A stretch of 17,256 nucleotides of DNA from a virus (taxonomy: Duplodnaviria > Heunggongvirae > Uroviricota > Caudoviricetes). Both the position numbers and the translations under genes were made by a program. The stretch lies in the IMG/VR virus record IMGVR_UViG_2778261160_000003, positions 1 through 17,256 of that record; one strand, 5' to 3'. Below the pieces are notes generated by a model. It saw only the letters and a program-made list of their open reading frames with translations. It ran no database searches and was not told the DNA's origin. Positions 8,213 through 16,322 of the stretch are shown piece by piece. Each line of letters opens with the position of its first letter. Position 1 is the first letter of the stretch.

Positions 8213-9295
8213 ATGATAAACGTTACAAACGAAATGCTCATTGATGTTGTCAGTGATGCTCTTACCGGGAAGAGGGAAAGTCTCCTCATGCGGTTGCGGA
8301 TTATGGCAAAAAAACTAAAAAAAGAATCTCCTGAATTAGCGGGTAAATTAGAAGATTTACTTATTAATACGGGTGGCGCAATTGCAGTCGAAAGGGCTAA
8401 TCCAGTTGTTCCTAAAATAACACCTGTTGATGCGGATACAAGACAAAAGCTGCTAGTTGAAACATATCCTGTGGTCATTGATGTTGAACCTGTTTGGCCA
8501 ACAAAAACTGATGTTCAACTGAATCGATTTGTGGCTGAGTGGGAAATGAAAGAACGCCTTTATAAAGAAGGGTTGCATCCCTCCAAATCTCTTCTTATGG
8601 GAGGACCACCCGGTGTGGGGAAGACTTTGGCTGCAAAGTGGCTCGCTTTTAAACTCGATATGCCATTGTTAACATTAGATCTCGCAAGTGTAATGAGTAG
8701 CTACTTGGGGAAAACGGGTAATAATATTAAGGCAGTCCTCAATTATGCTTCGTCATTCCCTTGTGTACTGCTTCTTGACGAATTTGATGCGATTGCTAAA
8801 AAAAGGGATGATGCAACAGATGTTGGAGAACTAAAAAGATTAGTTACAGTATTATTGCAAGCAATTGATGAATGGCCAAATACGTCTGTTCTTATAGCAG
8901 CAACTAACCATGCGGAGCTGCTTGATCCTGCTGCATGGAGAAGATTCGATCGAGTTATTGATTTTGAATATCCAACACAAGACCTAATGAGAAGATATCT
9001 CTGTTCTAAAAATATTGGAGATAGCTTATCGTACTATATTGCTACAAAACTCGAAAAAGTTTCATATGCAGTTCTTGAGAGAGCTATAAATCAAGCTAAA
9101 AGAAATGCCATTATAGAAGATATTCCTTTAAGTTCAGCTTTAATTGATGAGTTGTTAGATGGCGTGTCACTTGATGATGTTATAAAAAACATGTCAAACA
9201 ACAATGTATCACAAAGAAAAATCGCTTTAGATTTGGGGATTTCAAGGTCACAAGTACGTAAGGTTTTGACGGTTGAGGATGAAGACAATGAATGA
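8213..9295 (+). CDS. AAA+ ATPase with C-terminal HTH-like tail (cargo gene 1)
   Basis: 360 codons. Walker A GPPGVGKT (Lys codon 8621-8623), Walker B VLLLDEFD (8777-8782), sensor-1 IAATNH, second-region-of-homology-like AAWRRFDRV. C-terminal SQRKIALDLGISRSQVRKVL resembles a helix-turn-helix. AT-rich. Confidence 0.85.
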   Translation: MINVTNEMLIDVVSDALTGKRESLLMRLRIMAKKLKKESPELAGKLEDLLINTGGAIAVERANPVVPKITPVDADTRQKLLVETYPVVIDVEPVWPTKTDVQLNRFVAEWEMKERLYKEGLHPSKSLLMGGPPGVGKTLAAKWLAFKLDMPLLTLDLASVMSSYLGKTGNNIKAVLNYASSFPCVLLLDEFDAIAKKRDDATDVGELKRLVTVLLQAIDEWPNTSVLIAATNHAELLDPAAWRRFDRVIDFEYPTQDLMRRYLCSKNIGDSLSYYIATKLEKVSYAVLERAINQAKRNAIIEDIPLSSALIDELLDGVSLDDVIKNMSNNNVSQRKIALDLGISRSQVRKVLTVEDEDNE

Positions 9296-11480
9296 TAAAA
9301 ATATGCTTCTTGGCTATGGTGAAACACTAACTAACCCTGTTAAACTTAACAGAGGTGGAGGTGAAAAGAATAAACCTTACTCTTATTCAGAAAATAAACC
9401 AGTGATATCTGCTCAACTGGAAGAGTTGATTGAGGAAATTAATACCCTTCCATTGTTAGCAATGCCTGAAGGTAAGGCTGTAGCAAAATTTGTTTTGCAT
9501 CCGGCATTCTTAGCAAAAAGTTATTTTCCAGTAAGTCTTTTTGAGCGATTTTCCCTAGAAAGCATAGGCAGTAAGGCTGTAAAAGTAAAACCTAGAAAAG
9601 ATATTAAAAAAAGAGGGCGAAAAGAGGAATACACTACAGCGTGTATTTATGTTTCTGGCAAAAAAGAAAGTTTTCAATCATTCTTAGACTCTGTAAATCA
9701 AGATACCCTAACGAAAGGGCAGCAAAATGATTTTGTCACCTTAGAAAATATTTCAATACTGGAAGTTTCAGATAAAGTAAAAACGATTAATAGCAATGAA
9801 GTTATGAGTATTGAGGTCGCCTTACATACTCCTGATACAAGTTCCTCTATTGTCGATAGTTTTGAAGTTTTTGCTTCGCAAAATGGTGCTGTTATAGATA
9901 AGGCAAGAAGTATAAAAGTTAAGGGGCTAACCTTTATGCCTATTAAGGCTAGTAAAGATGTAGCTTTAAAAGTTGCAGAGTTTTCATTTCTCAGGACTTT
10001 GAGAGAACTTCCTGAATTAAGGCTAAGTGAGCCTGTTATATCACGTTCTGTGATTCAAACATCTAACCTTAGTTTACCATCTGAAGGAGCGGTAAACCCA
10101 CACATAAAGGTTGCCATATTCGATGGTGGATTGGGGATCGATGATTTCAATCCTTGGGTAACAGAGTACACTTTCAACGGTAATGCTAGTACTAATGCAA
10201 AACTTCTTTCTCATGGACAGGATGTCACCTCTACTGTGTTATTTGGTGTTCTTGGCTCTGAAACGGAAAAATTAAGTGTTCCTTATTGTAATATTGACCA
10301 TTATCGTGTACTGGATTCCAATGTTAATAACTCAGATGTCGATCTTTTTGACGTTCTGATCCGTATTAAAAGTGTATTAGAACAAAAAAAATATGATTAT
10401 ATCAATCTGAGCTTAGGACCTAGATTACCTGTTGATGACGATGACGTGCATGTGTGGACCTCAACTCTTGAGGAGATACTTGCATCAGGAGAAACACTTT
10501 GTACTGTCGCGGTTGGAAATGATGGTCAGCTGCCTGCCAAGTTAAATCGAATTCAACCACCTGCTGATTTAGTTAATGGTCTGTCAGTAGGTGCAGCAAC
10601 CTCTTTATCTGATAGTTGGGAAAGATGTTCTTACAGTTGTATTGGTCCTGGACGAAGCCCTGGCTTTGTGAAGCCTGATGGAGTTGCATTTGGAGGACAT
10701 TCTGATGAGCCATTCCAGGTATACAGCCCTATGGTTAATGGTCTTGCCCGCACTGCGGGGACTAGCTTTTCTGCTCCATTAGTCCTGAGGCAAGCAATCG
10801 CGTTAAGTGCTTCTCTAAATTACAACATTACACCACTTACGGCTAAAGCTCTGCTTATACATCATGCGGAGAGCAATAATATCAATCGTGCTGAAGTTGG
10901 TTGGGGACGATTTCCTCATGATCTTAGTGAAGTAATATTTTGTGATGATGATGAAGTTAAAGTTATATATCAAGGTACTTTAAAACCATCACAACACATG
11001 CGAGCACCTATTCCGTTTCCAGATGTACCTATGCGTGGATGTGTAAATTTAAGAGCGACATTCTGTTTTTCCAGTCCTGTTGATGCGGAACATCCTTTGA
11101 ATTATACAAGAAGCGGTCTAGAAGTAACCATGAGAAAAGGTGTTTCAGATAGTTCCGGGTTAACGTTTCCTCTTTTTAATCTAAAAAATGTTTATGCAGA
11201 TGAAAATGAGCAACGTGTTGATGCACATAAATGGGAGACTACGTTAAGAAGTGAACACAAATTTAAACCGAATGAGCTGACAAACCCATGCTTTGATATT
11301 ATCTACTATGGTAGAGACTGTGGTATGCCTATTGATGTTGACGAGTTAGAAGAACTACCATATGTTCTTGTTGTGACTTTATCTGCTGAAGAAATGCCGG
11401 ATTTATATAACCTAATTAGGCAGAAATATCAAACCTTACAGCCTATCCAAGTTCAACAGCAAATTATGTTACGTACTTAA
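9288..11480 (+). CDS. Subtilisin-like serine protease, S8 family, no signal peptide (cargo gene 2)
   Basis: 730 codons from ATG 9288; alternative ATG at 9279, ORF track starts at TTG 9273. Start overlaps the ATPase stop as ATGAATGA. Catalytic motifs in canonical order: Asp in VAIFDGG (10122-10124), His in SHGQDV (10212-10214), Asn in AVGNDG (10518-10520), Ser in GTSFSAP (10764-10766). N-terminus is hydrophilic. Confidence 0.85.
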   Translation: MNDKNMLLGYGETLTNPVKLNRGGGEKNKPYSYSENKPVISAQLEELIEEINTLPLLAMPEGKAVAKFVLHPAFLAKSYFPVSLFERFSLESIGSKAVKVKPRKDIKKRGRKEEYTTACIYVSGKKESFQSFLDSVNQDTLTKGQQNDFVTLENISILEVSDKVKTINSNEVMSIEVALHTPDTSSSIVDSFEVFASQNGAVIDKARSIKVKGLTFMPIKASKDVALKVAEFSFLRTLRELPELRLSEPVISRSVIQTSNLSLPSEGAVNPHIKVAIFDGGLGIDDFNPWVTEYTFNGNASTNAKLLSHGQDVTSTVLFGVLGSETEKLSVPYCNIDHYRVLDSNVNNSDVDLFDVLIRIKSVLEQKKYDYINLSLGPRLPVDDDDVHVWTSTLEEILASGETLCTVAVGNDGQLPAKLNRIQPPADLVNGLSVGAATSLSDSWERCSYSCIGPGRSPGFVKPDGVAFGGHSDEPFQVYSPMVNGLARTAGTSFSAPLVLRQAIALSASLNYNITPLTAKALLIHHAESNNINRAEVGWGRFPHDLSEVIFCDDDEVKVIYQGTLKPSQHMRAPIPFPDVPMRGCVNLRATFCFSSPVDAEHPLNYTRSGLEVTMRKGVSDSSGLTFPLFNLKNVYADENEQRVDAHKWETTLRSEHKFKPNELTNPCFDIIYYGRDCGMPIDVDELEELPYVLVVTLSAEEMPDLYNLIRQKYQTLQPIQVQQQIMLRT

Positions 11481-11485
11481 CAATG

Positions 11486-11509
11486 TGGAGGGGTTCCCCC
11501 TCCTTTATT
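11486..11509 (+). terminator. Rho-independent terminator after the cargo cassette
   Basis: GGAGGGG - TTC - CCCCTCC hairpin followed by TTTATT, 6 nt after the protease stop codon. Confidence 0.5.
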
Positions 11510-11518
11510 AAGCTTTAT

Positions 11519-12133
11519 CTATGTTGATTGTGGGTCATCGTTTATTAAGTTATATTTTTCAAAATGGATAATATTAATTCCTAACCATTCATTAAATTCC
11601 TGTAATCGTTTTTGTAAAGGCATTAATTCATTTCGAACAAACACTCGACTCGCCTTCTCTACATCTCCAAATCCTCCAACATTACTTGGCATAATCCCCA
11701 TCATTTGCGGCGGCACACGGTGTGCCGCCATCATGTCGTCCCGGCTCACGTTCTTGATATTCAGAAACTCATCCTTCGCCGCGACTTCTGACAACGGGAT
11801 GATCTGAAGCCCGTCCTTTTTGCCGTTAGGCGAGTACATAAACAGGTTGCGGAAGTTGCCAGGGCCTTTGGCGCTTTTCATCGCATTGCGGAGGTTGTTC
11901 ACATCCTCCTGGTTCTGCGCGGCATCGGTCATGTACATGATGAAGCCTGCATGACTGCCGTTAATATAATACTTCCGGCGGAACAGCGTGGCGGACTCGT
12001 TGAGCAGGGCTGACGGAATGGCAGAAAGATAACCTGGCAGGCCGTAGATCTCCTGGTTGATGTCAGGTTCCATCAGATGAAAAATGCTGCCTTTCGTGAA
12101 CTGATACGGCTGGGTTGTCATACCGTATTGCAC
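11519..12133 (-). pseudogene. Q: Portal protein (P2 Q-like) C-terminal fragment
   Basis: 204-codon minus-strand ORF with portal-like sequence, in the position and orientation of P2 Q. Far shorter than an intact portal; its 5' part is replaced by tail tube sequence on the opposite strand. Confidence 0.6.
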
Positions 12134-12558
12134 AAACCAGTAGGTATCCAGGTCTAACCCGCGTCGGGTGTATTTTGCCAGTGGATGTGGATCTGGGGCT
12201 TGATGACAGTGCGCTGGACACAGAATTTTCCATTGGTGGTACTGAATTGCTGCTGTTTAAGCAGATGGGCAAAGCCACGGTGGATGGCATCCAGTTGCGC
12301 TTTACCGGCTCTATCCAGCGTGACGATACCGGGGAAGTGCAGGCCGTGGAGCTTGTGGTGCGTGGACGTCACAAAGAAGTGGATTCCGGTGAGTGGAAGA
12401 CGGGCGAAAGCAACACCACCAAAGTGACCAGTACCAACAGCTACGCGAAGCTGACCATCAATGGTGAGGTGCTCTATGAAGTGGACCTTATCAACATGGT
12501 GGAAATTGTGGACGGTGTGGACCTGATGGAAGCGCACCGCAACGCCCTCGGCCTCTGA
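12115..12558 (+). pseudogene. FII: Major tail tube protein (P2 FII-like) C-terminal fragment
   Basis: ORF contains PVDVDLGLDDSALDTEF ... RFTGSIQRDDTGE ... INMVEIVDGVDLMEAHRNALGL, matching my memory of the P2 FII C-terminal half. Recognisable similarity probably begins near 12170. No sheath or upstream tail genes are present. Confidence 0.6.
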
Positions 12559-12612
12559 TGTATCTGAACGGCGCGGGATTCCGCGCCAGAACCCAATTTA
12601 CAGGACAACAAA

Positions 12613-12915
12613 ATGAGCGATAAGCAGACTGAAAAGACCATTCAACTGGATACCCCTATCAAGCGCGGTAAAACAGAAATTACCGAAATTGTGCTGCGTA
12701 AACCGCAGTCCGGTGCGCTGCGCGGTACACGCCTGCAGGCCATTATGGATATGGATGTGAACGCGATGATGACCGTGATCCCCCGCATTTCCAGTCCGGC
12801 ACTGACTGCACAGGAAATCGCAGAGATGGACCCGGCAGATCTCACAGCCATGTCGGTTGAGGTTGTCACTTTTTTGTTGAAGAAGTCGGTGCTTGCCGGT
12901 TTACCGACAGCCTGA
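12613..12915 (+). CDS. E: Tail assembly chaperone E (P2 gpE-like)
   Basis: 100 codons, MSDKQTEKTIQLDTPIKRGKTEITEI ... AEMDPADLTAM, immediately upstream of the tape-measure gene. Confidence 0.8.
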   Translation: MSDKQTEKTIQLDTPIKRGKTEITEIVLRKPQSGALRGTRLQAIMDMDVNAMMTVIPRISSPALTAQEIAEMDPADLTAMSVEVVTFLLKKSVLAGLPTA

Positions 12916-13049
12916 CGGTTGACGATCTGGTGGCAGATATCGCCACCATCTTTCACTGGCCGCCATCCGTTACTGACGTTATGCCGCTGACCGAAGTGCT
13001 GGAATGGCGGTATAAAGCGATTCAGAGAAGCGGGGCCAACGATGAGTGA
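12613..13049 (+). CDS. E+E' fusion product via programmed -1 ribosomal frameshift
   Basis: Slippery heptamer T TTT TTG at 12870-12876 near the end of E. The -1 frame is open from 12876 to a TGA at 13047-13049 (checked codon by codon) and overlaps the T start codon. Confidence 0.6.
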
Positions 13050-13971
13050 TAATAACCTGCGCCTGCAGGTCATTCTTAATGCGGTTGACAAACTCACCCG
13101 CCCATTCCGTGCTGCACAGGCCAGTTCGAAAGAGCTGGCTGGCGCAATCAGAAACTCCCGTGACGCATTAAAGCAACTCAATCAGGCGGGTAACAGCCTG
13201 GAAAAATTTCGCAAGCTGCAGGCCGATAACAAGAAGTTAGGCGACAGGCTGAACTATGCCAGACAGAAGGCTAATTTGCTTAGCTCTGAGCTGGAGGCGA
13301 TGGAACAACCATCACAAAGGCATCTTGTGGCTTTAGGTCGGCAAACGCTGGCAGTCCAACGCCTGGAAGAACAACAAAAATATTTGCAGAAGCAAACGGC
13401 TCTTGTGCGTGCAGAACTGTACCGGGCGGGAATTTCTGCGAAAGATGATGCGGGAGCAACTGCCCGTTTAGCCCGTGAAACATCACGTTATAACCAGGAA
13501 CTTTCGAAACAAGAGGCGCGGCTGAAGCGACTGGGGGAAGCTCAGCGCAGGATGAATGCGGCGCGTGCCAGTTATGCCCGTTCGCTGGAGGTGCGTGATC
13601 GTATTGCAGGTGCCGGAGCCACCACCACGGCTGCAGGGCTGGCAATGGGCGCACCAGTGATGGCGGCAGTAAAAAGCTATACCAGCATGGAAGATGCCAT
13701 GAAAGGTGTGGCAAAGCAGGTCAATGGTCTGCGTGACGATAATGGCAACCGCACCGCGCGTTTTTACGAAATGCAGGATGCCATCAAGGCTGCCAGCGAA
13801 CAGTTGCCGATGGAAAACGGTGCTGTGGACTTTGCTGCACTGGTTGAAGGTGGTGCGCGTATGAACGTCGCAAACCCTGACGACAGCTGGGAAGACCAGA
13901 AACGTGACCTGCTGGCCTTCGCCAGTACGGCGGCAAAGGCGGCAAATGCCTGTGAAGGTCAGTGGTTTTAA
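13042..13971 (+). pseudogene. T: Tail tape measure protein (P2 gpT-like), truncated N-terminal portion
   Basis: 309-codon ORF starting MSDNNLRLQVILNAVDKL with coiled-coil-like Gln/Ala/Arg-rich sequence. Far shorter than an intact tape measure; its 3' end runs into a D-like fragment in another frame. Confidence 0.6.
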
Positions 13972-14092
13972 ACAGCCGATAGATGATGCGGAATGGACCA
14001 TTACGACTCTGACACATACCGTCAGCCCGGATAACGGTTTTACGACCAGTCTGGAGCTTGAAGTGAGGATTGATGATTTCGAAATGGAATGA
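13904..14092 (+). pseudogene. D: Tail protein D (P2 gpD-like) C-terminal fragment
   Basis: 62-codon ORF ending SGFKQPIDDAEWTITTLTHTVSPDNGFTTSLELEVRIDDFEME, directly upstream of ogr as in P2. Fragment only. Confidence 0.5.
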
Positions 14093-14182
14093 TTCTTCGC
14101 AATGGAGAACTTTTAAGTTTGCAAAATGGAATAATACGGTATCATTATTGTGAATGTAGCAAAAATGGGGAGAACTCGAAAA

Positions 14183-14401
14183 ATGATGATTTGCCCACTG
14201 TGTGGAAGTGCCGCCCATACTCGCAGCAGTTTTCAGGTATCTTCATTGACCAAAGAGCGTTACAACCAGTGCCAGAACATTAACTGCAGCCATACTTTTG
14301 TTACTCATGAAACTTTTGTTCGTTCGATTGCAACGCCTAAAGAGTCAAATCCGGTTCAGCCGCATCCAATGAAATCTGGACAGGTGGCGCTCTCTCTTTG
14401 A
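14183..14401 (+). CDS. ogr: Late-gene transcriptional activator, Ogr/Delta zinc-finger family
   Basis: 72 codons from ATG 14183; the ORF track starts at 14150. MMICPLCGSAAHTRSS ... KERYNQCQNINCSHTF closely matches P2 Ogr (MFHCPLCQHAAHARTS ... KERYHQCQNVNCSATF) from memory. Confidence 0.85.
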   Translation: MMICPLCGSAAHTRSSFQVSSLTKERYNQCQNINCSHTFVTHETFVRSIATPKESNPVQPHPMKSGQVALSL

Positions 14402-14423
14402 CGCTGCCGCCATTTTGTCGCCA
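14402..14423. repeat. Candidate attR core, 22-bp direct repeat CGCTGCCGCCATTTTGTCGCCA
   Basis: 21 of 22 identical to 19-40. Begins immediately after the ogr stop codon. Confidence 0.55.
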
Positions 14424-14481
14424 TCGTTAAAAAACAGTGCTTCTAACATCATGATTTTAAACGGTATAAATTTCAGGCAAC

Positions 14482-14524
14482 AAAAAACCCATCAACCTTG
14501 AACCGAAATGGCGGGGTTGATGGG
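14482..14524 (-). terminator. Putative ybjL rho-independent terminator
   Basis: Inverted repeat CCCATCAACC (14488-14497) / GGTTGATGGG (14515-14524) with a T-run on the minus strand (plus strand CAAAAAA at 14481-14487). The 17-nt loop is larger than typical. Confidence 0.4.
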
Positions 14525-14636
14525 CTCCACAAAATGGGGACATCAAAGAAAAGCAGTGGCATTAATTAAGACTGATGCCCTGCGGAAAAGTTCTGCGGTT
14601 GTGCAAAAAAATTTCATTTTCAGGGCAACTTCAGTT

Positions 14637-16322
14637 TTATCCTAATCCTGGCCATACCATGACGATGATTGTCCCTGCCAGCGTCAGCAGGACGTTGGCG
14701 ATTGCGTAGGTGCCCGCATAGCCCAGCGCAGGGATGTTACTGCGAGCTGTATCACTGATGATCTCCATTGCCGGCGCGCAGGTGCGTGCGCCCATCATTG
14801 CGCCGAACAACAGTGCGCGGTTCATTCGCAATACATAAGCACCGAACAAGAAACAGATAACCACGGGCACAAGACTGACAATTAATCCGGCAATCAACAT
14901 CTGACCGCCAATCGCGCCCAGGCCGTTATTAATACCGCTACCGGCGCTCAGACCAACGCCTGCCATAAACACCATCAAGCCGAACTCTTTCACCATGCTT
15001 AATGCACCTTGCGGAATGTAACCGAAGGTCGGGTGGTTAGCACGCATAAAGCCCAGCATAATTCCGGCGAATAACAACCCGGCAGCGTTCCCCATGCCGA
15101 AACTGAATGTGCTGAACTGGAAGGTGATCATCCCGATCATCAGCCCAATAACAAAGAAGGCGCAAAATGCCAGCAGGTCAGTGACCTGGCTGTGAATCGA
15201 GATAAAGCCGATGCGATCGGCGATGGTTTTTACGCGACGGGCATCACCGCTGACTTGTAAAACGTCACCTTTGTTAAGCACGACGTTGTCATCTATCGGC
15301 ATCTCAATCTGGCTACGAATGACGCGGTTAAGGAAGCAACCGTGATCGGTCAACTTCAGTTGTGCGAGACGTTTACCTACAGCGTTATGGTTTTTAACGA
15401 CCACTTCTTCAGTGACGATACGCATGTCGAGAAGGTCACGATCGAAAACTTCTTTACCGTTACGGAAGCTGGGATCGAGTCGGGCATGGGCGTCGGGATA
15501 GCCTACCAACGCTATTTCATCGCCCATTTGTAGCACGGCATCACCGTCTGGATTTGCCAGAATCCCGTTACGTCGAATACGTTCAATGTAGCAGCCGGTT
15601 TGTCGATAAATACCCAGTTCACGCAGATTTTTGCCGTCGGTCCAGGCCACCAGCTCCGGGCCGACGCGATAGGCGCGGATCACCGGTAAATAAACCTTAC
15701 GGTTGGCATCAGTGTCCAGGCCACGTTCGCGGGCGATTTGCTGGGCGCTGGTCTGTAAGTCCTGATGCTGCAATTTCGGCAAGTAACGCGCACCAACAAT
15801 CAAACTCACCAGACCGATTAAATAGGTTAAGGCATACCCGAGGCTCAGATTATCCAGTGCCAGTGAGAGCTGCCTGCTTTCCATGCCGGAATGACGCAGT
15901 GTATCGCCAGCACCGACCAGAACCGGTGTCGACGTCATAGAGCCTGCTAACATACCGGCCGTCAGGCCAATATCCCAGCCAAACAGCTTACCTAACCCTA
16001 AGGCGATCACCAGCGCACTGCCAACCATCACCAGTGCTAACATTAGGTAATTTTTCCCATCGCGAAAAAAAATGGAAAAAAAGTTCGGTCCGGCTTCGAC
16101 CCCGACGCAGAAAATAAACAGCATAAAGCCAAGATTAAGCGCATCGGTGTTAATGCTGAAATGTTGTTGGCCTAATAACAGCGATACGACTAAAACGCCA
16201 ATGGAATTACCCAGTTGGATCGAACCAAGTCGTAACTTTCCGAGACATAGCCCAAGCGCGAGGACCACAAATAATAACAGAATGTAATTCCCATTTAACA
16301 ATTCGGCGACGTTTATATTCAC
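14637..16322 (-). CDS. ybjL: Putative transport protein YbjL (AAE-family transporter)
   Basis: 561 codons; sequence [33 protein letters not shown]... recognised as E. coli YbjL. Multiple hydrophobic segments and central soluble domains. Confidence 0.9.

What the first reader, a model, noticed from the sequence alone, without database searches (positions are those of the whole stretch)
12870..13049. Conserved -1 programmed frameshift site for E/E' retained in an otherwise defective tail region
The heptamer T TTT TTG (12870-12876) lies 13 codons before the E stop. The -1 frame is open from 12876 to a TGA at 13047-13049 (verified codon by codon) and ends 5 nt after the start of the T gene. This is the arrangement of the P2 E/E' tail chaperone frameshift, analogous to lambda G/GT. 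Its preservation suggests the E to T segment decayed recently or is under some constraint. It is also a correct call the six-frame ORF track cannot show.
Basis: partly seen in the sequence, partly recalled or inferred. Interest (0 to 1): 0.4.

Follow-up and report, generated by a model that had tools for sequence, protein, structure and literature searches.

The report
Known P2 tail-chaperone frameshift, orphaned
This is the well-known ribosome-slipping site that P2-type phages use to make two versions of a tail-assembly helper protein, left intact by chance in a recently and heavily deleted prophage of E. coli, so it is a correct but ordinary call.

Summary
Gene E (12613-12915) carries an in-phase T TTT TTG at 12870-12876. 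The -1 frame is open for 57 codons to TGA 13047-13049 and overlaps the T start (ATG 13042) by 8 nt.

It is the P2 E/E+E' cassette:
- E residues 9-88 match Pfam Phage_TAC_7.
- The -1 frame matches the full Phage_P2_GpE domain (E = 2.9e-18).
- RefSeq P2 annotates the frameshift at the same heptamer.
- The same layout appears in 156 of 160 related loci and in 386 phage records.

The window is an E. coli P2/186-like prophage remnant between rcdA and rybB/ybjL. Two illegitimate deletions (16.2 kb and 3.6 kb) left FII', E, E' and T' stranded. This fragment differs at 2 of about 1,770 nt from an intact prophage at the same site, and at none in E/E'. The deletion-specific T' fusion protein was found on only 2 contigs. 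No late promoter remains.

Preservation therefore reflects recency, not constraint. This is already known biology and of low interest.

Two side notes concern the family rather than this window: a conserved Shine-Dalgarno-like GAGGUG 7 nt upstream of the heptamer, and a conserved hairpin 51 nt downstream. Both are untested.

The parts
12179..12558 (+). FII' : 5'-truncated tail tube gene (lacks first 136 nt and its start codon)
   Evidence: Pfam Phage_tube matches profile positions 38-165 of 165. The alignment to the intact prophage L016 starts at FII nt 137.
12179..12181 (.). Deletion junction 1, with 3-nt microhomology CAG. It joins the portal fragment (antisense) to FII'. 16.2 kb is missing relative to the intact prophage.
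12570..12587 (+). GC-rich hairpin GGCGCGG-gatt-CCGCGCC in the FII-E spacer. It occupies the position of the 'tI partial terminator' annotated in phage 186.
   Evidence: Read from the sequence. The phage 186 annotation is. The correspondence is by position only and was not tested.
12613..12915 (+). Gene E, tail assembly chaperone, 100 aa, intact
   Evidence: Pfam PF10109 Phage_TAC_7, residues 9-88, E = 1e-18. The exact protein occurs on 1000 or more contigs.
12859..12867 (+). Shine-Dalgarno-like GAGGTTGTC (GAGGTGGTC in most relatives). Its GAGG core ends 7 nt before the heptamer. It is a candidate 5' modulator of the shift.
   Evidence: The anti-SD duplex minimum lies at -11/-12 from the heptamer: -10.3 kcal/mol in the window and a mean of -12.5 kcal/mol over 120 unique relatives, against a background of -2.4. 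The Glu codon is fixed as GAG in 118 of 127 sequences.
12870..12876 (+). Slippery heptamer T TTT TTG (Phe87 in the P site, Leu88 in the A site)
   Evidence: It is conserved as TTTTTTG in 151 and TTTTTTA in 5 of 156 scorable related loci.
12876..13049 (+). E' : the -1 frame extension, 57 codons plus TGA. It has no start codon of its own between its upstream stop (12858-60) and GTG 12930.
   Evidence: Pfam PF06528 Phage_P2_GpE, profile positions 1-37 of 37, E = 2.9e-18. Translation is. tblastn matches come in two frames in 386 phage records.
12928..12948 (+). Conserved 7-bp hairpin TGGTGGC-agatatc-GCCACCA inside E', 51 nt 3' of the heptamer. Its role is unknown.
   Evidence: It is the RNAalifold consensus structure. 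94.9% of cells are paired and 5 of 7 pairs show double-sided changes. The stem codons show suppressed synonymous variation and the loop codons do not.
13042..13971 (+). T' : truncated tape measure, made of 301 of 1025 codons plus 8 out-of-frame codons from the D region
   Evidence: This exact 309-aa product occurs on only 2 contigs.
13944..13945 (.). Deletion junction 2, with 2-nt microhomology AA. 3.6 kb is missing: the rest of T, all of U, and D except its last 152 nt.
13946..14092 (+). 3' fragment of gene D (last 48 codons)
14183..14401 (+). ogr (late-gene activator), intact, but no late promoter is left for it to activate
   Evidence: Pfam Ogr_Delta appears in the gene calls of L017. No TGT-N12-ACA box is found in the prophage part of the window.

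Best explanation
The segment is the E/E+E' tail-assembly-chaperone cassette of a P2/186-like temperate phage (Peduoviridae).

**How it works in an intact phage.** This account comes from established work on P2 and lambda, not from tests here. The Ogr-activated late promoter PF drives an FI-FII-E-T-U-D transcript. Most ribosomes translate E (100 aa) to its stop. A minority, about 10% in P2, slip back one base on U UUU UUG with tRNA-Phe in the P site and tRNA-Leu in the A site. They then read GUU and continue for 57 codons, making E+E' (145 aa, junction ...T-F-L-V-E-E...). Both products act with the tape measure T during tail assembly, like lambda G/GT.

**What has happened in this window.** The cassette is sequence-intact, but two recent illegitimate deletions have orphaned it. 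There is no late promoter, sheath, U or D gene. The tube gene has lost its 5' end, and the tape measure is cut to 29% of its length. Its preservation is most likely passive: too little time has passed for mutations to accumulate.

**Shown versus inferred.** Shown here are the anatomy, the homology, the conservation, the deletion map and the recency. Inferred are that frameshifting would occur if the RNA were made, and that the remnant is transcriptionally near-silent and functionless.
For: - **Anatomy:**
- **Domains in both frames:** PF10109 ends exactly at the slip codon (residue 88), and a full PF06528 lies in the -1 frame. PHROG tail families also match.
- **P2 reference:** the RefSeq record annotates a '-1 translational frameshift' at the homologous TTTTTTG, and its 142-aa E+E' fits the same model. 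Lynch et al. 2010 (PMC3091744) describe the P2 site as TTTTTTG giving a 91-aa E and a 142-aa E+E'. The Atkins et al. 2016 review (PMC5009743) says efficiency in P2-type phages is 2- to 3-fold that of lambda.
- **Conservation of the layout:** 386 phage records match in two frames. Of 156 scorable related loci, 151 have TTTTTTG and 5 have TTTTTTA. In the 77 diverse loci, the E stop is 13 codons after the A-site codon in 73, and the -1 ORF is 56-59 codons in 76.
- **Synonymous variation:** it collapses at the heptamer, across the E/E' overlap, and at the E'/T overlap. It is normal (about 1) in the -1-only stretch 12915-12929 just after the E stop, where the amino acids are conserved. That stretch has no start codon upstream in its frame, so it can be reached only by frameshifting.
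- **Deletion map:** compared with an intact prophage at the same chromosomal site.
- **Recency:**
  - Only 2 substitutions in 12179-13945, and none in E/E'.
  - The T' fusion protein is on 2 contigs, both 100% identical to the window.
  - No complete E. coli genome out of 5,426 has both junctions.
- **No promoter:**
Against: - Nothing here measures frameshifting or expression in this strain.
- The window's SD-like element is weaker (GAGGTT) than in most relatives (GAGGTG), so efficiency could differ from P2.
- Absence of a recognisable promoter does not exclude read-through or antisense-driven transcription.
- Recency explains preservation but cannot by itself exclude selection.
Confidence: 0.9

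Rival explanations
1. The orphan cassette is retained by selection. Under this reading, E, E+E' and the N-terminal third of the tape measure are expressed in the lysogen and poison or titrate tail assembly of superinfecting P2-like phages. Alternatively, they serve as a recombination or complementation reservoir.
For: - The remnant keeps immunity genes (CI), ogr and an IetAS defence pair, so it is the kind of grounded prophage in which host-beneficial genes persist.
- E, E' and the T' reading frame are undamaged.
Against: - The deletion genotype was found in only two places, an NCBI assembly contig (recorded in 3 samples) and one Logan run. Both are 100% identical to the window over their overlap, and the genotype is absent from 5,426 complete E. 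coli genomes.
- There are zero substitutions in E/E' against an intact prophage, so there is no time over which selection could be detected.
- A related remnant with the same cargo (STEC308) lost E-T entirely, and another (P15-25) has a different T truncation.
- No Ogr box and no sigma-70-like promoter lies upstream, and a terminator-like hairpin follows ietS.
Confidence: 0.03
2. E' is a separate small gene, translated on its own from GTG 12930 as the 39-aa 'GpE family phage tail protein' that PGAP annotates. No frameshift would then be needed.
For: - RefSeq and GenBank records annotate it this way, and that 39-aa sequence is stored from 994 contigs.
- The column is GTG or ATG in 123 of 127 relatives.
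Against: - No Shine-Dalgarno sequence precedes 12930, and the GTG sits inside a hairpin stem.
- The -1 frame opens exactly at the slip site. The 18 codons before the GTG encode conserved residues with normal synonymous variation once the E overlap has ended.
- The heptamer and its phase are conserved even though the amino acid of the preceding codon varies (T/N/G/S/L).
- Fusion-protein and complementation experiments in P2 showed that E' is made as a -1 extension of E. This is from my own knowledge of Christie et al. 2002; the paper could not be opened here and is summarised in PMC3091744.
Confidence: 0.03
3. The frame change is made by RNA polymerase, not the ribosome. Transcriptional slippage on the T6 run would add one U to a fraction of mRNAs, giving an E+E' with junction F-F-V.
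For: - The site is a homopolymer run of 6 T, or 7 in some relatives such as L011.
- One IMG/VR relative (L019) has T8, which shows that the run is indel-prone at least at the DNA or sequencing level.
Against: - From general knowledge, productive transcriptional slippage in enterobacteria normally needs runs of about 9 or more.
- The conserved feature is a phased heptamer ending in G or A, which is the signature of tandem tRNA re-pairing, not simply the longest possible run.
- Lynch et al. 2010 and the review by Atkins et al. treat the P2 case as ribosomal frameshifting.
Confidence: 0.03
4. It is a chance juxtaposition of a T-rich heptamer and an open -1 frame, with no biological meaning.
For: TTTTTTG occurs 16 times in the window. 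With 17 in-phase XXXYYYZ sites and a 1.75% chance each of a long open -1 frame, about 0.3 such coincidences would be expected from ORF length alone.
Against: - The -1 frame matches the full-length Pfam domain (E = 2.9e-18).
- Position and phase are conserved across Enterobacterales, Pseudomonas, Burkholderia and Ralstonia phages.
Confidence: 0.005

Closest known systems
Bacteriophage P2 genes E and E+E' (-1 programmed ribosomal frameshift in the FETUD operon; Christie et al. 2002)
   Same: - The heptamer T TTT TTG is the same.
- It lies at the end of the Phage_TAC_7 domain, as in P2.
- The -1 extension is 57 codons long and carries the GpE domain.
- The E' stop overlaps the T start by the same ATGAnTGA geometry.
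- The gene order is FII-E-E'-T.
   Different: - The E+E' protein is 49% identical to P2's.
- The E zero-frame tail after the slip is 12 codons here and 6 in P2.
- The host element is a deletion remnant that lacks PF, FI, U and D and has truncated FII and T.
Intact P2/186-like prophages and phages of E. coli and Klebsiella (e.g. the prophage of E. coli 200088 at rcdA-ybjL; Klebsiella phage 4LV2017, Elveevirus)
   Same: - The E/E' DNA is identical to the E. coli 200088 prophage, and the fragment is 97% identical to 4LV2017.
- The attachment locus is the same as in strain 200088.
   Different: Those elements carry the complete morphogenesis gene set. The window has lost 16.2 kb and 3.6 kb on either side of the cassette.
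Phage 186 orf51/orf52 (gene H)
   Same: The heptamer and the 57-codon -1 ORF are the same. The GenBank note reads 'probably produced by a translational frameshift'.
   Different: The protein is 43% identical, and E in 186 has a longer N-terminus.
Lambda G/GT and the general tail-assembly-chaperone frameshift of long-tailed phages (Levin 1993; Xu, Hendrix & Duda 2004)
   Same: Two nested products are made by -1 slippage from the gene pair between the major tail (tube) gene and the tape measure gene. The functional logic is the same.
   Different: There is no sequence similarity. Lambda uses G GGA AAG at about 3.5-4%, and P2-type efficiency is reported as 2- to 3-fold higher.
E. coli dnaX -1 frameshift (A AAA AAG with a 5' Shine-Dalgarno-like stimulator and a 3' stem-loop)
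   Same: It is a bacterial -1 heptamer preceded by an internal SD-like sequence. The P2-family loci have one of the strongest anti-SD matches in the gene just upstream of the heptamer.
   Different: The spacing here is 7 nt after the GAGG core, against 10 nt in dnaX and the reported 9-14 nt window. There is no stem-loop 5-9 nt downstream; the only conserved hairpin is 51 nt away. This is a mechanistic analogy only, not homology.

Membership tests
P2-type E/E+E' frameshift cassette (Peduoviridae tail assembly chaperone) | The zero-frame gene is a gpE homologue (Pfam PF10109 Phage_TAC_7). | tested here: met
   residues 9-88, 67.5 bits (cut-off 25), E = 1e-18; phrog_103, E = 2e-42.
P2-type E/E+E' frameshift cassette (Peduoviridae tail assembly chaperone) | An in-phase slippery heptamer T TTT TTG lies near the 3' end of E. 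| tested here: met
   12870-12876, phase ACT TTT TTG. The homologous position in P2 is annotated as the frameshift site.
P2-type E/E+E' frameshift cassette (Peduoviridae tail assembly chaperone) | The -1 frame is open from the heptamer, encodes the GpE (E') domain PF06528, and has no initiation site of its own. | tested here: met
   57 codons, PF06528 profile positions 1-37 of 37, 65.5 bits (cut-off 23). There is no ATG, GTG or TTG in that frame between 12861 and 12929.
P2-type E/E+E' frameshift cassette (Peduoviridae tail assembly chaperone) | It is located between the tail tube gene (FII) and the tape measure gene (T), with the E' stop overlapping the T start. | tested here: met
   FII' lies upstream and T' downstream, with an 8-nt overlap (ATG 13042, TGA 13047-49). 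Both neighbours are truncated.
P2-type E/E+E' frameshift cassette (Peduoviridae tail assembly chaperone) | An E+E' fusion protein is actually produced by -1 ribosomal slippage. | not testable with these tools
   This needs a reporter assay or mass spectrometry. It is inferred from identity of the E/E' DNA to intact prophages and from published P2 work.
P2-type E/E+E' frameshift cassette (Peduoviridae tail assembly chaperone) | It is expressed from an Ogr-dependent late promoter as part of a functional tail operon. | tested here: not met
   PF and FI are inside the 16.2-kb deletion. There is no TGT-N12-ACA box in the prophage part and no sigma-70-like site between 11503 and 12613. The sequence element is therefore a member of the family, but the operon context is not functional.
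Lambda-type G/GT tail chaperone frameshift (functional class of Xu et al. 2004) | Two overlapping ORFs lie between the major tail/tube gene and the tape measure gene, joined by a -1 slippery site, and the shorter product is nested in the longer. | tested here: met
   The class is described.
Lambda-type G/GT tail chaperone frameshift (functional class of Xu et al. 2004) | The proteins are homologous in sequence to lambda gpG/gpGT. | not tested
   No lambda G/GT comparison was run. The Pfam hits were to P2-specific families only. The literature states there is no similarity; that is my own recollection of the Christie 2002 abstract.
dnaX-like stimulated -1 frameshift | A 5' SD-like element lies 9-14 nt upstream of the heptamer, and a stem-loop lies 5-9 nt downstream. 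| tested here: not met
   An SD-like element is present, but its GAGG core ends 7 nt before the heptamer. No conserved structure lies close downstream: the window fold has z = -1.5, and the only conserved hairpin is 51 nt away.

The most novel reading that the evidence does not exclude
The orphaned module, consisting of E, frameshifted E+E' and the N-terminal 301 residues of the tape measure, is expressed at a low level in the lysogen. Under this reading it acts as a dominant-negative decoy that derails tail assembly of superinfecting P2-like phages. Together with CI immunity and the IetAS pair, it would add a defence layer to a grounded prophage.

A second, more probable reading concerns the family rather than this window. 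The conserved GAGGUG 7 nt upstream of the heptamer and the conserved hairpin 51 nt downstream may be uncharacterised cis-modulators of P2-type frameshift efficiency. I put that at about 0.3 probability and about 0.3 interest.
Probability: 0.02. Interest if true: 0.55.

Novelty: already known. Interest (0 to 1): 0.1.

Why it matters
This has little importance as biology. The P2 E/E+E' frameshift has been known since 2002 and is conserved across the family, and this copy is a stranded, probably silent relic.

It has some practical value in two respects:
- **Annotation.** Pipelines split E' off as a 39-aa 'GpE family' gene. The true 145-aa product of this lineage is absent from a collection of 15 billion proteins.
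- **Interpreting prophage remnants.** An intact recoding signal in a remnant says nothing about constraint when the deletion is very recent.

The family-wide SD-like element and the hairpin could be cheap targets for anyone studying how frameshift efficiency is set in the absence of a classical 3' stimulator.

Tried and rejected
- **A close 3' stimulatory structure.** The fold of 12877-12960 has z = -1.5. The alignment fold found nothing within 50 nt of the heptamer. I rejected a dnaX- or IS-type stem-loop.
- **Rfam.** A permissive scan of 11400-14700 found only RybB. No curated RNA family covers the site.
- **A solved structure for E+E'.** There were no PDB sequence matches at E up to 1.
- **The same deletion genotype elsewhere.** None of 5,426 complete E. 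coli genomes has both junctions. An exact look-up of the T' fusion protein found only 2 contigs, both identical to the window. A test of post-deletion selection (dN/dS within the remnant lineage) is therefore impossible.
- **Promoters.** I searched for Ogr boxes and sigma-70 promoters that could drive E. None was found in the prophage part.
- **The primary paper.** Christie et al. 2002 (PMC135442) is not held. I relied on secondary descriptions and mark my recollection of its abstract as such.
- **Prior mention of an SD-like stimulator in P2-type phages.** Literature searches found none, but the library is incomplete, so I make no claim of novelty.
- **Chance.** I considered it as an explanation and rejected it.

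Full report
**1. Observation**

The sequence shows gene E from ATG 12613 to TGA 12913-12915, encoding 100 aa. Near its end the codons read ACT (12868-70), TTT (12871-73) and TTG (12874-76). TTTTTTG at 12870-12876 is therefore in the X XXY YYZ phase needed for tandem -1 slippage.

The -1 frame has a stop at 12858-60 and is open from 12861. After the slip it reads GTT at 12876 and continues for 57 codons to TGA 13047-13049. The next gene starts at ATG 13042, so the two overlap by 8 nt.

The bare heptamer is not special, with 16 copies in the window against 7.6 expected. However, of the 17 in-phase XXXYYYZ sites in the window's genes, this is the only one followed by at least 57 open -1 codons. 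Only 1.75% of codon positions have such an open -1 frame.

**2. Identity**

- The zero-frame product matches Pfam Phage_TAC_7 ('tail assembly chaperone proteins E, 41 or 14') over residues 9-88, which ends exactly at the slip codon.
- The -1 frame matches the whole Phage_P2_GpE model, profile positions 1-37 of 37, E = 2.9e-18. PHROG tail families agree.
- Upstream is a tail tube (FII) fragment, and downstream is a tape measure fragment.
- RefSeq P2 (NC_001895) annotates 'E+E', -1 frameshift' with the site inside the homologous TTTTTTG.
- Applying one rule to P2, 186, phiCTX, RE2010, ENT90, KS14, ST11-VIM1phi8.4 and RsoM1USA gives the same picture each time. The heptamer is TTTTTTG, the -1 extension is 55-58 codons, and its stop falls 3-10 nt into the T gene. 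The rule reproduces the annotated 142-aa P2 product.
- Smp131 has TTTTTTT and VHML has TTTTTTC.
- A tblastn search with the modelled 145-aa fusion hits 419 phage records, 386 of them over at least 80% of the query. Every full-length match listed was in two pieces, meaning two frames.
- Lynch et al. 2010 (PMC3091744) describe the P2 site in these terms.
- The recoding review of Atkins et al. 2016 (PMC5009743) notes that P2-type efficiency is 2- to 3-fold that of lambda G/GT.
- I recall about 10% from the abstract of Christie et al. 2002. That paper could not be opened here.

**3. Conservation in depth**

I collected 80 close relatives from IMG/VR and 80 loci from species-representative genomes. 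The genome loci are mainly Enterobacterales, including Citrobacter, Pantoea, Xenorhabdus, Photorhabdus and Providencia, plus Pseudomonas and Chromohalobacter.

- Of the 160 loci, 156 could be scored. 151 have TTTTTTG and 5 have TTTTTTA.
- Among the 77 diverse loci, the E stop is 13 codons after the A-site codon in 73, and the -1 ORF is 56-59 codons in 76.
- Of the four loci that failed the filter, two are truncated matches. One (a Symbiopectobacterium symbiont) has the T6G run but failed the ORF-length filters. One (L019) has a T8 run.

A codon-level comparison of 127 unique sequences shows where synonymous variation is suppressed:
- It collapses (observed/expected 0-0.15) at the heptamer.
- It is mostly low across the stretch where the E tail and E' overlap (12876-12912).
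- It returns to about 1 in the -1-only stretch 12915-12929 just after the E stop, where the -1 frame amino acids are nevertheless conserved.
- It drops again in the last two E' codons, which overlap the T start.

The codon before the heptamer varies in amino acid (T/N/G/S/L). Its third-position T was required by the search pattern, so that point is not independent evidence. No start codon exists in the -1 frame between 12861 and 12929. Those conserved residues can therefore only be reached by frameshifting. This argues against the pipeline annotation of E' as an independent 39-aa gene starting at GTG 12930.

**4. Context: what the window is**

The window is 100% identical to contig NLOH01000001.1 of assembly GCA_002230265.1 and to a Logan assembly of SRR3989635. 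Its flanks (rybB, ybjL, ybjM, grxA) are E. coli chromosome.

It is a P2/186-like prophage inserted between rcdA and rybB/ybjL. It carries int, CI, CII, fil, a Dam methylase, replication gene A, dinI and an IetA/IetS defence pair.

E. coli 200088 has an apparently complete prophage at the same site. Aligning the window to it shows two deletions:
- **Deletion 1 (16.2 kb).** It runs from inside the portal gene to nt 136 of FII. It removes terminase, capsid, lysis, baseplate, fibre and sheath genes and all late promoters. The junction is at 12179-12181 with CAG microhomology.
- **Deletion 2 (3.6 kb).** It runs from T codon 301 to 152 nt before the end of D. The junction is at 13944-13945 with AA microhomology. 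It creates a 309-aa T' product with 8 foreign codons.

The E/E' cassette sits in the 1.77-kb island between these two deletions.

**5. Recent decay or constraint?**

- The island differs from the intact 200088 prophage at two positions only: 12247 in FII and 13401 in T. There are none in 12613-13049. At that divergence, about 0.5 changes would be expected in the 437-nt cassette, so an undamaged frameshift site needs no special explanation.
- The deletion-specific T' protein occurs on only 2 contigs of a collection of 153 billion gene positions. The E protein occurs on 1000 or more contigs.
- No complete E. coli genome out of 5,426 carries both junctions.
- Other remnants at the same locus decayed differently. 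STEC308, which shares the early genes and the IetAS cargo, has lost FII-E-T altogether. O139:H1 P15-25 keeps FI-FII-E-E' with a different T truncation.
- No Ogr box (TGT-N12-ACA) remains in the prophage part.
- No sigma-70-like site lies between the terminator-like hairpin after ietS (11487-11503) and E.

I conclude that preservation is passive and recent. I estimate the chance that the module has a selected function at a few per cent.

**6. Mechanism**

- **Shown here:** a phased U UUU UUG; a -1 ORF reachable only from it; family-wide purifying selection on both the signal and the E' protein.
- **Inferred from P2 and lambda work:**
  - tRNA-Phe (P site) and tRNA-Leu (A site) re-pair one base back.
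  - The junction is F-L-V.
  - About a tenth of ribosomes shift.
  - E and E+E' chaperone the tape measure and recruit the tube protein.

Two cis features emerged that I could not find discussed in the library.

(a) **A Shine-Dalgarno-like element upstream.** It reads GAGGUGGUC in most relatives and GAGGUUGUC in the window.
- Its GAGG core ends 7 nt before the heptamer.
- It is the strongest anti-SD match in the 360 nt examined: mean -12.5 kcal/mol against a -2.4 background, and at or below -6 kcal/mol in 97% of 120 unique sequences.
- Its Glu codon is GAG in 118 of 127 sequences, although most other Glu columns prefer GAA.
- The review gives 9-14 nt as the spacing that stimulates -1 shifts and 3 nt for +1 shifts. 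At 7 nt its effect is therefore uncertain.
- It is absent from some Pseudomonas and Stenotrophomonas members.

(b) **A 7-bp hairpin at 12928-12948, 51 nt downstream of the heptamer.**
- It is the only consensus structure in the alignment.
- 94.9% of cells are paired, and 5 of 7 pairs show double-sided changes. It exceeds the shuffle and slide controls, although relatedness inflates such numbers.
- Its stem codons (GTG, GCC, ACC) are synonymously constrained, while the loop codons are free.
- It is too far away to be a classical stimulator, and its role is unknown.
- No structure lies within the usual 5-9 nt. This agrees with Lynch et al., who found none within 60 nt.

**7. Rivals**

- Independent initiation of E' at GTG 12930, transcriptional slippage on the T run, and selection for a decoy function each get about 3%.
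- Chance is excluded by homology.
- The tests that would separate them are listed under decisive next steps.

**8. Comparison and novelty**

The element meets every sequence-level criterion for the P2 E/E+E' family. It fails only the criterion of a functional operon context. It works like lambda G/GT without being homologous to it. It resembles dnaX only in having an upstream SD-like sequence.

This is already known biology in an ordinary degraded prophage. The 145-aa product is absent from a 15-billion-protein collection, while the 39-aa artefact is stored from 994 contigs. That is an annotation gap rather than a discovery. Interest: 0.1.

Noticed in passing
window 12859-12867; same position in L099-L178 and the phage loci L004-L013: A Shine-Dalgarno-like GAGGTG(G/A)TC is conserved just upstream of the slippery heptamer across P2-type loci.
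- It is the strongest anti-SD match in the region examined: mean -12.5 kcal/mol against a -2.4 background.
- Its Glu codon is fixed as GAG, where most other Glu codons are GAA.
- The spacing of 7 nt after the GAGG core is just short of the 9-14 nt reported to stimulate -1 shifts.
- The window has the weaker form GAGGTT.
   Followed up: partly
window 12928-12948 (alignment A2, columns 80-100): A conserved 7-bp hairpin (TGGTGGC / GCCACCA) lies inside E', 51 nt 3' of the heptamer.
- It shows compensatory changes.
- Its stem codons are synonymously constrained and its loop codons are free.
- It contains the GTG that PGAP uses as the start of its 39-aa 'GpE' gene.
- Its function is unknown.
   Followed up: partly
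window 12930-13049; L001, L002, L014, L015: GenBank and RefSeq (PGAP) records annotate E' as a stand-alone 39-aa 'GpE family phage tail protein', stored from 994 contigs. The frameshifted 145-aa product of this lineage is absent from the collection of 15 billion proteins. This is a systematic annotation gap for a known recoding event.
   Followed up: yes
window 8213-11480: The prophage cargo between dinI and the portal remnant is an IetA (AAA ATPase) / IetS (S8 peptidase) anti-phage defence pair. The PADLOC E-values are 7e-84 and 2e-48. A terminator-like hairpin follows at 11487-11503. The intact prophage of strain 200088 carries different cargo at this hotspot.
   Followed up: partly
window 14479-14557 (- strand): The RybB sRNA gene (Rfam RF00110, 105 bits) lies immediately beyond ogr. 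The prophage is therefore inserted next to, or at the 3' end of, rybB, between rcdA and ybjL.
   Followed up: no
L003 (E. coli STEC308), L015 (E. coli O139:H1 P15-25), window: The same attachment site holds independently decayed versions of the prophage in different strains.
- STEC308 lost FII-E-T but keeps U and D.
- P15-25 has a T-D fusion at a different breakpoint.
- The window has two deletions with 2-3 nt microhomologies.

The locus makes a natural series of prophage erosion.
   Followed up: partly
L019 (IMGVR_UViG_2734481921_000002), around position 842: One relative has a T8 run where its closest relatives have T7 followed by G. This would place E' in frame with E, so that only the fusion is made. 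It could be a real slippage mutation or a homopolymer sequencing error.
   Followed up: no
window 12570-12587: A GC-rich hairpin (GGCGCGG gatt CCGCGCC) without a T tract lies in the FII-E spacer. It is at the position where phage 186 has an annotated 'partial terminator tI'. It may set the tube-to-chaperone expression ratio in intact phages.
   Followed up: no
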